Source: a virus. Taken from it: a stretch of 64,000 bases of DNA. Under the pieces are notes generated by a model. It searched no databases, was not told the DNA's origin, and worked only from the letters and a program-made list of their open reading frames with translations. The DNA is taken from the IMG/VR virus record IMGVR_UViG_3300037258_000375, positions 32,001 through 96,000 of that record. One strand, written 5' to 3'. The position numbers and the translations under genes are program-made. This document shows positions 51,900-58,000 of this stretch, in pieces; position 1 is the first letter of the stretch, and the number at the start of each line of letters is the position of its first letter.

Positions 51900-53408
51900 T
51901 CACACACCTACCAGTTCCGTATCCTTCAGCACATCGCTGAGCGACTTCAACGGCGTCGCCATGATCTCGTCAACGAGGCTGTACTGGTTCGACCGCATCG
52001 TCTGCACAAGGTTCGGGATCGCATAATAGTCCGTCTTGCCGTCGCGAAGATCGAACGTCTGCATCTCGATACCCAGTGCATTCATGCGGTAGCTCAAGTT
52101 ATCTGTACCGCCAGCGCAGTGGTAGAAGTAGACCGGCACGTCCTTATCCACGAACGTCGCATACTTCTTATACACATCCGGGAAGTGAGGTGCCCTATTC
52201 TCCTCGCCGTCCGACACGATGGCAATGCCGTCAACCGCGATCTTCTCCGCCAGCATCCGATTCAGACCGCAACCGATGGACGTCGCCGAGCCAGTCTTGA
52301 TGTGCTTCGTCGCGGCGATGACCTGATCCAGCGAGCAACCGGTGACATCTACAGTCATCGGAGTTTCGTCGAAGAACACGAGATACACCTTGCCCTTCAC
52401 GAACTGCGCCAGAGACGCCGCCACATGCTTACCGAACTCGATGCTCTTCTCCATGCTCGGGCTGCGATCCACCAGCACAAGCCAATCGCCAGCCGGACCG
52501 CCAGCCTTCGCGATCTGCTTCGCCTGCAAGCCGCGCAGCTTCTCCTTCAGGCCCTCATCCGTGACGCCCTCGACTGCCTGGGTCGTCTTGAGCGTGTTCT
52601 GCGTAGACGTTGCCGCCTTCTGAAGTGCCTGCTCAAGCGCACCACGCAAAGCTGGGTTGGTCTTGACGCCGAGCTTCTCCAACATCTTCATGCTGGTCGC
52701 TAACTCGGTTGCCGTCATTTGGCCGATGAGGGCCAACACAAGGTCCGGCTCCTTCGCCTTCGCACCAAGAGCACCCGCAGCGATCAAGAACGGCACCTTG
52801 AACCTGATGATTGCGCCCGCCGCCTCAACCGGAGACATGTCCTTGAGGTGTGCCACTGCTTCGAAGACAGAGCCCTTCGGCAAAGCCAGCTTGGTCACAA
52901 CCACGGTACCGTCGATCTTCTCCTTCCACTGGCCGGAGATGACCGCAGCGACGCGGCGGTTACCAGGACCGGTACGTGAGAGCGCGTACAGCGCCTTGAG
53001 CACGCTGCGGTGCTGGATCGCGATGTGATCCCAGTTCCGTGACTCTTCCTTCTGCCGGAGATAGGCGCGAATCACGCGATCCATCTGCGACATCTTGCCC
53101 TTCGGACGAATCTCACGCACGAAATCGAAGGCGCGGCGCAACTCACGCGGGCCGAGCGCAGCCATGTGCGCGACGCTGTTGTCGAGTAATTCGAGATCAC
53201 TCTCGAACGCGAGGCCGAGAACCGGCAACGCGACCTTGCTGTCACGAATCTGACCATGCCGCGCGTTCCAGGCGATCAAATGCTGGAAGAACTCGCCATC
53301 CTGCGCAATGGCCTGCTTGCCAACCTCGACATACTCGCCGAGCTTGCCGTGAGGAGACTTACTCAACTCGCTAAAAACCTTGGAGCGCGTTAAACCCTGC
53401 TTCTCCAT
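51900..53408 (-). CDS. Ro60/TROVE-like RNA-binding protein with C-terminal vWA domain
   Basis: About 500 aa; helical N-terminal region then LVLVDRSPSM, T..GC, IVSDGEEN; adjacent tRNA-mimic RNA array. Confidence 0.75.
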   Translation of the reverse strand: MEKQGLTRSKVFSELSKSPHGKLGEYVEVGKQAIAQDGEFFQHLIAWNARHGQIRDSKVALPVLGLAFESDLELLDNSVAHMAALGPRELRRAFDFVREIRPKGKMSQMDRVIRAYLRQKEESRNWDHIAIQHRSVLKALYALSRTGPGNRRVAAVISGQWKEKIDGTVVVTKLALPKGSVFEAVAHLKDMSPVEAAGAIIRFKVPFLIAAGALGAKAKEPDLVLALIGQMTATELATSMKMLEKLGVKTNPALRGALEQALQKAATSTQNTLKTTQAVEGVTDEGLKEKLRGLQAKQIAKAGGPAGDWLVLVDRSPSMEKSIEFGKHVAASLAQFVKGKVYLVFFDETPMTVDVTGCSLDQVIAATKHIKTGSATSIGCGLNRMLAEKIAVDGIAIVSDGEENRAPHFPDVYKKYATFVDKDVPVYFYHCAGGTDNLSYRMNALGIEMQTFDLRDGKTDYYAIPNLVQTMRSNQYSLVDEIMATPLKSLSDVLKDTELVGV

Positions 53409-53437
53409 AGTGTCACCGTCTCTTTCAGTTGTGGTAG

Positions 53438-53989
53438 TTATGGGAGTGTACGAGTTCTGAGATATTCGAGAAGGTCGATATAGCTGATCTTCTTCAACTG
53501 GCACCACGCCACCGCCGACATACCACCTTTGTCTTTGTTGCATTTTCGGCACGCAGACAGGTAGTTACTCGGATCATTCAAGCCGCCCATCTCCAACGGA
53601 TTGAAGTGGTCAATGGTCAATTGAACCTTGCCCATCGGCAGACTACAGTACACACATTTACAGCCGTCAGCCATCCATACTTTCTGCTGGACGGCACCGG
53701 AAATGTCGTAGCGTAGCTTCCGATGGAAAATCTTCTCCATCGAGCCTTGGACAAGAATCTCAGGATCGTCCGATCTCTGGAGCCAGTCCGACCATTCTTC
53801 GGTGGTAAGAATTCGAACTGACGCTACAGTAGAAAGACCACGCGCGTTCGGCAATAAGAACACGGCTTGCGCGCCTTCGCCGCCGATCACGACACCTTCA
53901 ATTTTGAGGATGGAGCCTACGTCGCCGTGGAGAGCGGGACGATGGCGCAATTCTAGCTGATAAAATCTTGAGTCACTCGCCATCGTCAT
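53438..53989 (-). CDS. HNH nuclease with N-terminal extension
   Basis: C.YC, LTIDHF.P...GG.....NYLSAC..CN..KG. Confidence 0.8.
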   Translation of the reverse strand: MTMASDSRFYQLELRHRPALHGDVGSILKIEGVVIGGEGAQAVFLLPNARGLSTVASVRILTTEEWSDWLQRSDDPEILVQGSMEKIFHRKLRYDISGAVQQKVWMADGCKCVYCSLPMGKVQLTIDHFNPLEMGGLNDPSNYLSACRKCNKDKGGMSAVAWCQLKKISYIDLLEYLRTRTLP

Positions 53990-54809: not shown

Positions 54810-54946
54810 TGGGCTGTAGTCGATCTGCTTGTGTTGCTAAGCGCTCTACCACTGAGCTAATCCCGCATAAAATTATGGGGCGGGATGAAGGATTCGAACC
54901 TCCGACCTCTGCCTTGGAAGGGCATGTAAGCAAATCAGTCAGCCCA
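54810..54946 (-). ncRNA. Y-RNA-like unit C carrying a circularly permuted tRNA-Gly(TCC)-like domain
   Basis: GCTGACTG..CTTACATG, CTTCCAA, T-arm, acceptor 3' strand+CCA, loop, acceptor 5' strand, D-arm, CGACTACAGC. Confidence 0.8.
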
Positions 54947-55042: not shown

Positions 55043-55159
55043 TCCGCTGTAGTCGTCTGGCAACCCCTTGCGGGGACACGGTCGGATTTGAACCGACTGC
55101 TTTTCATCCAAATTGAAATGTGGGACCAACCCACACATGTAAGCCAAACAGTCAGCGGA
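55043..55159 (-). ncRNA. Y-RNA-like unit A with T-arm
   Basis: GCTGACTG..CTTACATG, GGTTCAAATCC, CGACTACAGC; promoter TTGCGC-N17-TAAGGT upstream. Confidence 0.72.
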
Positions 55160-55196: not shown

Positions 55197-55862
55197 TCAT
55201 GCGCGCAATTTCTTTTTCTGCGCCGATCTATGGAGGGGCCGGAGGGAGTCGAACCCACGACCTGTTGATTCGTAGTCAACCGCTCTATCCGTCTGAGCTA
55301 CGGCCCCGTGGTCGGGACTGTGGGATTCGAACCCACGACCACCTGTTCCCAAAACAGGAGCGCTACCTGACCGCGCCCAGTCCCGATACTCTAAGTCTTG
55401 GTCGGGGAGAGGGGATTCGAACCCCTGCATAGCCGAGCTACCTGCCCTTTGGTACGCGCCCAAGGATTCGAACCTCGGACCTCCGTCAGACTGCAACGGC
55501 GCTCTGACCACTGAGCTAGGCGCGTATGAAACATTCTTCTCACTCCACAGTTTATAGTTCTGCAAGACCGCGCGCTGTTCCTCATCGAGGGGCACGGTCA
55601 CGACCGCTGTGAGACCAAGGTCATTGTCCGGCTCATAGAAAGCGGACGCATCGATGTGATGCAGCTTGAGCTTGGCAATGACTCTTTCGAGAGCTTTTTT
55701 GTTGGGGACGCCGATCAACACGAGGGACGGAACAAGATCATCCACACTCTGTGAAAGTGTGTAGGCCATCTCAAATGTCGCATGATTGGTCTGAATGATC
55801 TGCTGCGCCAAGGTCAGGTCTTGGCGGACGAACAAGAAGTAGTATGGATTCCCCTAATGCAT
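55197..55862 (-). CDS. peptidyl-tRNA hydrolase (Pth2-like), TAG at codon 3, frame runs through tRNAs
   Basis: YYFLFVRQDL..Q...Q..HA, F.EPD...LTA, L..YKLW; ATG CAT TAG in frame. Confidence 0.7.
55231..55307 (-). tRNA. tRNA-Arg(ACG)
   Basis: Loop CTACGAA, CCA. Confidence 0.92.
55309..55385 (-). tRNA. tRNA-Pro(TGG)
   Basis: Loop TTTGGGA, CCA. Confidence 0.92.
55399..55447 (-). pseudogene. tRNA-Pro-like remnant lacking the anticodon arm
   Basis: T-arm and CCCCGACCA end present; about 49 nt. Confidence 0.55.
55450..55525 (-). ncRNA. tRNA-like RNA with non-canonical anticodon loop
   Basis: Intact acceptor, D and T arms and CCA; loop GCAGTCT lacks U33/R37. Confidence 0.7.
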
Positions 55863-56157
55863 GTGAGTATCTTTCACCTGTTCTAAAATTTTGTCAAGGG
55901 GAATTTTCTAAACACGCCCTCATGAATCACATCTAGCTGGTAGCAAGTGATACCTATTTGTCTCGCTTTCACTTTCATGATGAGGGTTCGGCTGTTGGAA
56001 TCCCATTCTCCGACATCGATGCCGATGACGTACTTACTTGGAGGCGGGAGCGTGACCATGCCCGCACTCACCGGTTCCAATGCCGCGACAGCAGCCAAGG
56101 GCGCGAGAGCTTTCGCGCCAGCAAGACCAGCTATCGATCTGAGAAAGCCGCGCCGAT

Positions 56158-56771: not shown

Positions 56772-56994
56772 AAAAATCAGGCAGAACCAGTATATCCCGA
56801 ACCTGCACTTGTAATCACAACGGAAGCAATCCGGCCATTCGCATTGAGGGTTACCTCGGTCCCAACCCGGCGAGCCTCCCAGGCACGAGCCGATCTCAGA
56901 AAGATATTCCGGATCAGAGCCGCTTTCCGCCGCCTCTGAATCCGCGCCAAGACCTTCTTGCGCTTGTGCTTCTTTTTGCGATTCTCGGGCATAA

Positions 56995-57348
56995 AAATCG
57001 AGGCCGGGTATTGCTTTGCATGGAACCCGGCGAACCACGGATAGCTGTTTTTAGGCAGCCATCGGCAACGCATTATCCTCAGCGTTTATTGGTCTGCATC
57101 CCTTTTGCGGGCGGTAGCAGGGTTCCCGGCACGAAGCTGGAGTTCATTGATCTCGTCGAAACCTTGACGCCCCCACCAAGAAACACTGATTGAGAAATGT
57201 CTAGCCTGTCCACGAAGCTTTTTGACCAGCTTCGCCCTCGTAGCGCCGGAATCGAACCGACGACGCAATTAGTGCTTCTTGGTGGAGGCGGCGGGAGTCG
57301 AACCCGCGTCCGAAATCAACTTCCTTCAGTGTTGACGTGCGTAACTCA
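56995..57348 (-). ncRNA. ssrA: circularly permuted (two-piece) tmRNA; tag (A)AEDNALPMAA
   Basis: Acceptor piece ..GGACGCGGGTTCGACTCCCGCCGCCTCCACCA (to 57280) precedes coding piece GGGGGCG..TTTCGAC (from 57174); G3:U70; tag ORF 57083-57051. Confidence 0.85.
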
Positions 57349-57373
57349 AATACTGCTCTCCTTTTCTTGAAAA

Positions 57374-57916
57374 TCATTGGACTTGAATATACACCGTCTT
57401 GTCTTCTGACGGGACGATTAAAAAGCTCCGGTCTGGTAAATCCGGAATCCCATGGATCAATCGCTGTCGTAGGGATTCGTGATGTACCCCATAATTCTTA
57501 GCTACCGACCGCATGGACTCACCAGACCTGATCCGCTCTCTCGCGATAGCAAGCTGGTCTTCTGAAAATCTCCTGGTCACCTCGCGTCTTCTGCGCCCAC
57601 GCGCCGGGTCATACGAGGTAATCGCTTTATCTATCTGCGATTGGCGACGAATCGACATCAATGGCCTGAGCAACTGCATCATCTGCAATATCCTCAAGCC
57701 GCCAATGTTGACAACCCAGGAATCTTTCCACTGAGGCTTACGCTTTTTCTTTCGAACTTTGTGATACTTCGCGTTTAACAACCTTGCGATTCGCGCGATC
57801 ACATCTTCATCTGTCATATTGCATGATATGCGTGGGCAATTTGGCTTAGAAGGAGGGCTACATAGAAATGACCCCTCCCCTTCAAGAATGCCAGCAAGCC
57901 AATGAAGATCATGCAT
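57374..57916 (-). CDS. LAGLIDADG endonuclease with C-terminal HTH
   Basis: WLAGILEGEGSF, MTDEDVI, PLMS.RR..QI, SMRSVAKNYGV. Confidence 0.82.
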   Translation of the reverse strand: MHDLHWLAGILEGEGSFLCSPPSKPNCPRISCNMTDEDVIARIARLLNAKYHKVRKKKRKPQWKDSWVVNIGGLRILQMMQLLRPLMSIRRQSQIDKAITSYDPARGRRRREVTRRFSEDQLAIARERIRSGESMRSVAKNYGVHHESLRQRLIHGIPDLPDRSFLIVPSEDKTVYIQVQ

Positions 57917-57924
57917 CAAAATTA

Positions 57925-58000
57925 TGGCGCGACCGACCGGGGTTGAACCGGCGACCTCTTGATCGACAATCAAGCGCTTTTCCATCTAAGCTACGGTCGC
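57925..58000 (-). tRNA. tRNA-Asp(GTC)
   Basis: Loop TTGTCGA, GCCA. Confidence 0.9.

What the first reader, a model, noticed from the sequence alone, without database searches (positions are those of the whole stretch)
55197..55897. Pth2-like gene gated by an amber codon at position 3 and lacking its own stop
Seen: TTGACA-N17-AAAGAT-N6 then ATG CAT TAG GGG AAT CCA TAC TAC TTC TTG TTC GTC CGC CAA GAC. The TAG (55854-55856) is in frame and precedes the YYFLFVRQDL strand expected at the N-terminus of Pth2-like folds; the alternative TTG start would truncate that strand. After the domain (about 55540) the frame stays open through four tRNA/tRNA-like genes, so RNase P cleavage at 55525 would give a non-stop mRNA. 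Established analogies: RF2 autoregulation by an internal stop, and ArfA control by non-stop mRNA and tmRNA. Inference: the hydrolase is made only when termination and/or trans-translation fail, a third translation sensor alongside the attenuators.
Basis: partly seen in the sequence, partly recalled or inferred. Interest (0 to 1): 0.8.

Follow-up and report, generated by a model that had tools for sequence, protein, structure and literature searches.

The report
Amber-gated stop-less phage Pth2-like gene
A soil phage gene for a small enzyme that resembles a peptidyl-tRNA hydrolase has a UAG stop as its third codon and no stop at its end; dozens of distant phages keep the same early UAG beside their own UAG-reading tRNA, so it is probably a natural translational switch, not a broken gene.

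Summary
On the minus strand, ATG CAT TAG (55862-55854) precedes a 109-codon ORF. The frame then stays open to TGA at 55199-55197, through the tRNA-like genes.

- **Fold:** the protein has a Pth2 fold (pLDDT 90.7; Foldseek TM about 0.7) but gives no Pfam hit.
- **Early stop:** among 69 distinct viral relatives, 43 have ATG plus 1-12 codons plus a stop just before the first strand. That stop is always TAG, and a purine follows it in nearly all.
- **Suppressor tRNA:** almost all of these phages encode a tRNA(CUA) nearby, as do cultured ME3, Arash, RsoM2USA and GAP32. RaK2 has no TAG and no such tRNA.
- **Genetic code:** the phage otherwise uses the standard code.
- **Stop-less end:** four close soil relatives and several deeper ones keep it, fused to a covarying tRNA-like RNA without a normal anticodon loop.
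- **Main caveat:** I found no tRNA(CUA) on this 105-kb contig (CheckV 89%). The closest relatives have one 150-500 nt downstream.

This scan found the amber-gated Pth2-like/tRNA(CUA) cassette before on other DNA. I found no paper describing it. Nothing here is experimental.

The parts
55863..55897 (-). Promoter-like element: TTGACA (55897-55892), 17 nt, AAAGAT (55874-55869), 6 nt. It would place the transcript start at or next to the ATG, giving a leaderless message.
   Evidence: Sequence. The same geometry occurs in L062 and L068 and in L135-L138. The consensus scan did not call it. Function is inferred.
55854..55862 (-). Start and gate: ATG CAT TAG, with the amber codon as codon 3 (55856-55854), followed by G.
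   Evidence: Relatives have ATG plus 1-12 codons plus TAG in 43 of 43 gated distinct loci. The closest relatives have ATG CAT/CAC TAG.
55527..55853 (-). Pth2-fold domain of 109 codons, GNPYYFLFVRQDL ... NYKLWSEKNVS. It keeps every invariant and nearly invariant residue of the family.
   Evidence: AlphaFold2 pLDDT 90.7. Foldseek gives Pth2/Bit1 chains at TM about 0.7, probability 1.0. The profile against PDB Pth2 sequences gives E = 2.7e-4. Alignment A2. No Pfam hit.
55197..55526 (-). Stop-less run-on. The frame continues from the junction codon T|AC (tRNA-like nucleotide 1 = 55525) for 110 codons to TGA at 55199-55197.
   Evidence: The tail length is not conserved in relatives.
55450..55525 (-). 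tRNA-like gene abutting the ORF. It has a full cloverleaf, an encoded CCA and acceptor stem ACGCGCC/GGCGCGU, but a non-decoding anticodon loop GCAGUCU (no U33, no purine 37).
   Evidence: ARAGORN. Infernal 52 bits with an abnormal anticodon arm. Orthologues in eight loci show compensatory changes in 11 of 21 pairs.
55399..55447 (-). 49-nt tRNA remnant with D-like and T arms and CCA but no anticodon arm. Its acceptor strands do not pair in this window.
   Evidence: Sequence. The counterpart in L136 has a perfectly paired acceptor GGGCAGG/CCUGCCC.
55231..55385 (-). tRNA-Pro(UGG) 55309-55385 and tRNA-Arg(ACG) 55231-55307. They sit where the closest relatives carry their tRNA(CUA).
   Evidence: comparison.
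56960..57372 (-). Context: a phage-encoded permuted (two-piece) tmRNA with predicted tag AEDNALPMAA, 1.1 kb upstream on the same strand.
   Evidence: ARAGORN. Rfam RF04321 at 101 bits.

Best explanation
The gene encodes a divergent Pth2-fold protein, probably an esterase acting on the acyl or peptidyl end of a tRNA. It belongs to a large family in tRNA-rich phages. Translation starts at AUG 55862, probably on a leaderless transcript, and meets UAG at codon 3. The enzyme is made only if that UAG is read as sense. The designed reader is a phage-encoded amber-suppressor tRNA(CUA), so the gene works as a lock whose key is the phage's own suppressor, in a phage that otherwise uses the standard code. 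In this lineage the ORF has no stop and is fused in a fixed frame to the 5' end of a structured, non-decoding tRNA-like RNA. RNase P cleavage there would leave a stop-less message, so ribosomes that passed the gate would need rescue. Shown here: the sequence features, the fold, the conservation of the TAG and of the stop-less junction, and the linkage to tRNA(CUA) in relatives. Inferred: suppression, processing, rescue and enzyme activity. My odds are about 0.65 for the suppressor-keyed gate in the family and about 0.35 that the stop-less end is itself regulatory. In this window the key is missing from the contig.
For: The early stop is always TAG, in 43 of 43 distinct gated loci. Loci with a normal start have TAA, TAG and TGA upstream at 8 each. 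The base after the TAG is A in 24, G in 19, C in 2 and T in 0. A Shine-Dalgarno motif or promoter sits in front of the ATG. No usable internal start lies before strand 1. A tRNA(CUA) lies on the same strand within 10 kb in 42 of 48 gated loci and 15 of 32 ungated loci (Fisher p = 1.3e-4). Three of the six apparent exceptions have one further away or of unusual shape. Among cultured phages, ME3, Arash, RsoM2USA and GAP32 have both the TAG and a tRNA(CUA), and RaK2 has neither. The gated state spans deep branches of the family tree. The standard code holds on this contig: TAG ends 30 of 150 ORFs and coverage does not rise if TAG is read as sense. The four closest relatives, L135-L138, share ATG CAT/CAC TAG, the promoter geometry and the stop-less junction, and each has a tRNA(CUA) 150-500 nt downstream. 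The abutting tRNA-like RNA covaries.
Against: No tRNA(CUA) was found on the window's own 105-kb contig by ARAGORN, default or permissive, by Infernal or by a stem-loop pattern search. CheckV rates the contig 89% complete. TAG terminates about a fifth of this phage's ORFs, so a strong suppressor would be costly. Two relatives (L069, L136) have an ATG directly after the TAG, so the domain could start there. The Pfam PTH2 model does not match, and the Gly-Lys of canonical Pth2 is absent in the profile alignment. There are no expression, proteomic or biochemical data. The tail after the domain is not conserved.
Confidence: 0.55

Rival explanations
1. There is no dedicated suppressor. The UAG is read through only when RF1 is limiting, and the stop-less product escapes degradation only when trans-translation is saturated, so the enzyme reports failure of termination and rescue.
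For: No tRNA(CUA) on this contig. TAG is the RF1-specific stop. The stop-less end is conserved. A phage tmRNA lies nearby.
Against: Nearly every gated relative, including all four closest ones, carries its own tRNA(CUA) next to the gene. That linkage is unnecessary under this model. The purine after the TAG fits efficient suppression (established knowledge, recalled and not checked here).
Confidence: 0.1
2. AUG-X-UAG is a two-codon leader ORF, of the start-stop or bar-minigene type. The enzyme is translated by re-initiation at or just after the stop.
For: L069 and L136 have an ATG immediately after the TAG. Codons after the TAG are often ATT, ATA or GTN. Two-codon minigenes are known to generate peptidyl-tRNA, the substrate of Pth enzymes (established knowledge).
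Against: This does not explain why the stop is never TAA or TGA in 43 distinct loci, nor the linkage to tRNA(CUA). In most loci, including this window, no ATG, GTG or TTG lies between the TAG and strand 1.
Confidence: 0.07
3. In this particular phage the lock has lost its key. The tRNA(CUA) was replaced (tRNA-Pro and tRNA-Arg sit in its place) and the gene is now silent or nearly so, a recent relic that has not yet decayed.
For: The suppressor is absent from an 89%-complete contig. The neighbouring mini-tRNA has an unpaired acceptor here but a paired one in L136. The region is rearranged, with a Y-RNA-like array and an HNH gene.
Against: The ORF is intact over 109 codons and keeps every invariant and nearly invariant family residue. 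The promoter geometry and the abutting tRNA-like cloverleaf are intact. About 11% of the genome is unseen, and in L098, L102 and RsoM2USA the suppressor lies 13-40 kb away.
Confidence: 0.12
4. The 3' end is not a non-stop message in practice. Either ribosomes translate the unprocessed precursor and stop at the first chance stop in the tRNA region, so the tail is junk, or the U left at position -1 after RNase P cleavage is extended by 3' oligoadenylation to an in-frame UAA, as in animal mitochondria.
For: Tails end at different places in relatives, after 35, 37, 63 or 115 codons. In the window, L135, L137/138 and L067 the last base before the tRNA-like gene is a T in codon position 1.
Against: L136 has C at that position, and in L062 and L068 the tRNA starts at a codon boundary. 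U at -1 is in any case the base bacterial RNase P prefers (recalled). There are no data on processing or tailing.
Confidence: 0.2
5. Sequencing error or dead pseudogene.
For: A single in-frame stop plus a missing stop is the usual signature of a broken gene.
Against: Both features recur in independent assemblies and in finished genomes of cultured phages, with synonymous variation around them.
Confidence: 0.01

Closest known systems
Stop-codon-recoded phages with phage-encoded suppressor tRNAs (TAG read as Gln, 'code 15'; Borges et al., bioRxiv 10.1101/2021.08.26.457843)
   Same: In-frame TAG in a phage gene, a phage tRNA(CUA), and the proposal that read-through times or gates expression.
   Different: There, many late genes carry many TAGs and TAG is largely abandoned as a terminator. 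Here the genome uses the standard code, and a single TAG sits at codons 3-13 of one conserved small gene beside the tRNA. That paper does not mention a hydrolase.
prfB (RF2) autoregulation through an in-frame UGA
   Same: An early in-frame stop makes synthesis depend on how well that stop is terminated.
   Different: prfB needs a +1 frameshift and encodes the factor that reads the stop. Here the frame continues unchanged, the product is not a release factor, and a dedicated tRNA is linked to the gene.
ArfA regulation by a non-stop mRNA and tmRNA
   Same: A message that lacks a stop after RNA processing, so the fate of the product would depend on ribosome rescue.
   Different: The arfA message is cut by RNase III in a hairpin. 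Here the presumed cut is RNase P at a tRNA-like 5' end. Tagging and activity of the product are untested.
tRNA punctuation of animal mitochondrial transcripts
   Same: The ORF abuts a tRNA 5' end with no complete stop, and a U lies at the junction in codon position 1 in the window and several relatives.
   Different: Completion to UAA by polyadenylation is unproven in bacteria or phages. The junction base and frame differ in L136, L062 and L068.
Phage lambda bar minigenes (AUG-AUA-stop)
   Same: A two-sense-codon ORF in a phage, with a functional link to peptidyl-tRNA hydrolase.
   Different: bar minigenes stand alone and are toxic when Pth is limiting. Here the mini-ORF is in frame with a Pth2-like domain, and its stop is always TAG.
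Pth2 / Bit1 (PTRH2) peptidyl-tRNA hydrolases, including the canonical PTH2 of jumbo phages (Iyer et al. 2021, PMC7824862)
   Same: The same alpha/beta fold, and shared RxDL and Q..HA motifs.
   Different: No match to the Pfam model. The Gly-Lys segment is missing. It is a separate family: RaK2 has both a canonical Pth2 (ORF188, PMC3622015) and this one (ORF216).

Membership tests
Pth2 (PF01981) peptidyl-tRNA hydrolase | Pth2 alpha/beta fold | tested here: met
   AlphaFold2 pLDDT 90.7, pTM 0.85. The top 11 Foldseek hits are all Pth2/Bit1 chains, TM 0.68-0.73, probability 1.0.
Pth2 (PF01981) peptidyl-tRNA hydrolase | Match to the Pfam family model above its cut-off | tested here: not met
   No Pfam hit at E <= 1. 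Only a family profile against PDB Pth2 sequences matches, at E = 2.7e-4 and 5.4e-3. PHROG 3668 'hydrolase' matches at E = 2.3e-4.
Pth2 (PF01981) peptidyl-tRNA hydrolase | Catalytic residues of canonical Pth2 | tested here: inconclusive
   The Arg and Asp of RxDL and the Gln and His of Q..HA are invariant or nearly so and align with Pth2. The Gly-Lys segment falls in a gap. E-P-D replaces D-A-G.
Pth2 (PF01981) peptidyl-tRNA hydrolase | Hydrolysis of peptidyl-tRNA | not testable with these tools
   Needs a biochemical assay.
Amber-suppressor-gated phage gene (suppressor tRNA as key) | Conserved in-frame TAG inside a conserved ORF | tested here: met
Amber-suppressor-gated phage gene (suppressor tRNA as key) | tRNA(CUA) encoded by the same genome | tested here: not met
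   None on the 105-kb contig, 89% complete. The feature is met in relatives.
Genome-wide TAG recoding (code 15) | TAG not used as a terminator; coding density rises when TAG is read as sense | tested here: not met
   TAG ends 30 of 150 non-overlapping ORFs. Coverage is 0.879 under both codes.
prfB-type autoregulation | +1 frameshift site at the in-frame stop, and a product that is the factor reading that stop | tested here: not met
   The domain continues in the zero frame. The product has a Pth2 fold.
ArfA-type non-stop control | ORF lacks a stop upstream of an RNA processing site | tested here: met
   No stop lies between 55853 and the tRNA-like 5' end at 55525. The same holds in L135-L138, L061, L062/63, L067, L068 and L069.
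ArfA-type non-stop control | Cleavage occurs, and the product is tagged by tmRNA and degraded | not testable with these tools
   Needs RNA-end mapping and proteomics.

The most novel reading that the evidence does not exclude
The message and its tRNA neighbours form one self-referential circuit. A leaderless AUG-X-UAG ORF can be translated only with the phage's amber suppressor. Because the ORF has no stop and is fused in frame to the next tRNA(-like) gene, which in L062 and L068 is the suppressor itself, read-through ribosomes either invade and block maturation of that RNA or stall on the RNase P-cut end. This would couple suppressor level, tRNA processing and ribosome rescue (including the phage tmRNA) to the output of a peptidyl-tRNA-hydrolase-like enzyme.
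Probability: 0.15. Interest if true: 0.88.

Novelty: new variant of a known kind. Interest (0 to 1): 0.72.

Why it matters
Many large phages that use the standard code carry an amber-suppressor tRNA with no known purpose. The XacN1 authors looked for targets and found none (PMC5852040).

- A conserved gene whose third codon is UAG, sitting beside that tRNA, is a concrete and testable target. The first test needed is a reporter experiment in a cultured phage.
- It would be a natural single-gene genetic-code switch.
- It also explains why this gene is truncated or missing in GenBank annotations of GAP32, ME3, Arash, RsoM2USA, BF and others.
- The stop-less fusion to a non-decoding tRNA-like RNA adds a second, unexplained layer that bears on ribosome rescue in infected cells.

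Tried and rejected
- **Genome-wide TAG recoding:** rejected.
- **Hidden tRNA(CUA) on the contig:** ARAGORN with introns and at low thresholds, Infernal at E <= 0.1, and a search for stem-loops with CUA plus a T loop found none. The one pattern hit at 55384 (+) is the reverse complement of the spacer next to tRNA-Pro.
- **The odd tRNA-like RNA as a UAG reader:** its loop GCAGUCU contains no CUA. Its orthologues have GNRA tetraloops or other short loops.
- **The repeated GACWG...UACAUG motif downstream as promoters or split tRNAs:** dropped. Earlier notes of this scan read these as a Y-RNA-like array, and Rfam gives sub-threshold YrlA hits.
- **Other early-stop-gated genes on this contig:** no excess of TAG over TGA or TAA.
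- **Terminal repeats of the contig:** none.
- **Pfam:** no hit.
- **The look-up of encoding contigs:** I used the single metagenome scan instead.
- **Fraction of the wider family that is gated:** cannot be estimated from predicted proteins, because gene callers start after the TAG.

Full report
**1. The observation**

All features lie on the minus strand.
- TTGACA (55897-55892), 17 nt, AAAGAT (55874-55869), 6 nt.
- ATG (55862-55860), CAT, TAG (55856-55854).
- The same frame then reads GNPYYFLFVRQDL....
- The frame is open from the TAG to TGA at 55199-55197.
- It crosses a tRNA-like gene (55450-55525), a 49-nt tRNA remnant, tRNA-Pro and tRNA-Arg.
- The only in-frame ATG, GTG or TTG before the conserved Arg is TTG 55835, inside predicted strand 1.

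Within one genome the pattern is weak evidence. ATG, 1-4 codons, a stop, then at least 90 open codons occurs 24 times on this contig. The case rests on the comparison with relatives.

**2. What the protein is**

- Pfam gives nothing.
- A 62-sequence alignment (A2) gave an AlphaFold2 model with pLDDT 90.7.
- Its best Foldseek matches are all Pth2/Bit1 chains (1q7s, 2zv3, 3erj, 1wn2, 1xty; TM about 0.7, probability 1.0).
- The family profile hits PDB Pth2 sequences at E = 2.7e-4.
- RxDL and Q..HA are shared with Pth2. The Gly-Lys segment is not.
- The family is large: 1,597 clusters (at 50% identity) at E <= 1e-10.
- It is distinct from the canonical PTH2 already noted in jumbo phages (PMC7824862, PMC3622015).

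**3. The early stop is conserved and is always TAG**

tblastn against cultured phages found homologues in jumbo phages.

| Phage | Start of the gene | tRNA(CUA) in genome |
|---|---|---|
| ME3 | ATG ACT TAG | yes |
| Arash | ATG CTG TAG | yes |
| RsoM2USA | ATG TTG TAG | yes |
| GAP32 | ATG GCA CAA TAG | yes |
| RaK2 | plain ATG, no stop | no |

 GenBank annotation truncates or omits the gene in the gated phages.

A scan of viral contigs gave 80 loci, 69 of them distinct.
- 43 distinct loci have ATG (one has GTG), 1-12 sense codons and a stop 9-20 codons before the conserved Arg, with no usable internal ATG. The stop is TAG in all 43.
- Two apparent TAA cases have a Shine-Dalgarno motif and a GTG start, so they start normally.
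- Loci with a normal start have TAA, TAG and TGA upstream at 8 each.
- The base after the TAG is A in 24, G in 19, C in 2 and T in 0 (binomial p = 6e-11 for purines). As I recall, a purine there favours suppression. I did not check this here.
- Gated sequences span deep branches of the family tree, which needs about six state changes.

**4. Linkage to an amber-suppressor tRNA**

- A tRNA(CUA) lies on the same strand within 10 kb in 42 of 48 gated loci and 15 of 32 ungated loci (Fisher p = 1.3e-4).
- Three of the six gated exceptions do have one. In L069 it lies 560 nt downstream and has a long variable arm. In L098 and L102 it lies 30-40 kb away.
- In L062/63 and L068 the suppressor starts at the nucleotide after the last domain codon.
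- This contig uses the standard code. TAG ends 30 of 150 non-overlapping ORFs, and reading TAG as sense does not raise coverage.

**5. The window's own lineage**

A metagenome scan seeded with a close representative (P0028) gave four soil contigs, L135-L138. All four share these features with the window:
- ATG CAT/CAC TAG at the start.
- A TTGACA/N16-18/-10/N6-7/ATG geometry, also seen in L062 and L068. It would make the message leaderless.
- No stop before an ACGCG-type tRNA-like gene, joined in the same frame (T|ACGCG; C|ACGCG in L136).

That tRNA-like RNA keeps its cloverleaf through compensatory changes in 11 of 21 pairs. Its anticodon loop is non-canonical or replaced by a tetraloop.

The distance from the domain to the first stop is 35, 37 or 63 codons in the relatives and 115 here. 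The missing stop is therefore conserved, but the long open frame is not.

Each of the four relatives has a tRNA(CUA) 150-500 nt downstream. The window has tRNA-Pro and tRNA-Arg in that position.

**6. The main caveat**

No tRNA(CUA) is detectable on the window's contig. The contig is 105,298 bp, linear and without terminal repeats, and CheckV rates it 89% complete. The key may lie in the missing part, may have been lost, or may come from elsewhere. The ORF itself is intact and keeps all conserved residues.

**7. Reading**

Most likely the gene is a suppressor-keyed switch, and its stop-less end is a lineage-specific second layer whose consequence is unknown.

It does remain possible for this phage if the genome truly lacks the tRNA.

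Re-initiation after a two-codon leader does not explain the exclusive use of TAG.

**8. Prior knowledge**

I found no paper describing this. The XacN1 study explicitly failed to find targets for its CUA tRNAs.

Earlier notes of this scan report the same amber-gated Pth2-like/tRNA(CUA) cassette on other DNA. I had filed my own reading before seeing them. A later check of one of those notes kept the observation but priced the bold reading low, because nothing is experimental. I agree with that caution.

Noticed in passing
window 55399-55525 (-); L137:2593-2830; L136:453-700; L135:490-640; L050, L051, L054, L061: Next to the gene, relatives carry tRNA-like genes with an encoded CCA whose anticodon loop is replaced by a GNRA tetraloop (GCAA, GUAA) or another short loop, plus about 50-nt 'mini-tRNAs' with no anticodon arm at all. 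In L137 one such RNA shares its acceptor stem (ACUCCCG) with the adjacent tRNA(CUA). This looks like a conserved non-decoding tRNA-like class of unknown role.
   Followed up: partly
window 56960-57372 (-): Phage-encoded permuted (two-piece) tmRNA with predicted tag AEDNALPMAA. Rfam RF04321 at 101 bits.
   Followed up: no
window 55863-55897 (-); L062, L068, L135-L138: A conserved TTGACA/N16-18/-10/N6-7/ATG spacing implies a leaderless message starting at the AUG of the gated ORF. Other clades use a Shine-Dalgarno motif instead.
   Followed up: partly
L001-L004 (GenBank KU935715, OQ632216, MG752970, JN882285): Public annotations truncate this gene (ME3_195, GAP32_397, Arash_gp84c) or omit it (RsoM2USA, Serratia BF, several Erwinia and Yersinia phages) because of the TAG. 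The CUA tRNA of Arash is annotated as tRNA-Phe.
   Followed up: yes
L074 (-206), L081 (-1237), L051 (+136): Some relatives have a tRNA with anticodon UCA or UUA where sister loci have CUA, so the type of suppressor beside this gene can change.
   Followed up: no
window 57374-57985 (-) and 53438-53989 (-): A LAGLIDADG-like ORF whose 5' end overlaps tRNA-Asp, and an HNH endonuclease ORF, both inside the tRNA region.
   Followed up: no
window 54838-54911 and 55076-55140 (-): Sub-threshold YrlA (Y-RNA-like) and tRNA hits in the repeat array downstream of tRNA-Arg, next to a 550-aa ORF (51900-53552) that earlier notes call Ro60-like.
   Followed up: no
P0003, P0005, P0018, P0022, P0028, P0043, P0049, P0062, P0066, P0071, P0075, P0086, P0128: Many predicted proteins of the family in public data have C-terminal tails that are translated tRNA sequence (VAQ..., GS.P motifs). 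ORFs running into a tRNA are therefore common in this family.
   Followed up: partly
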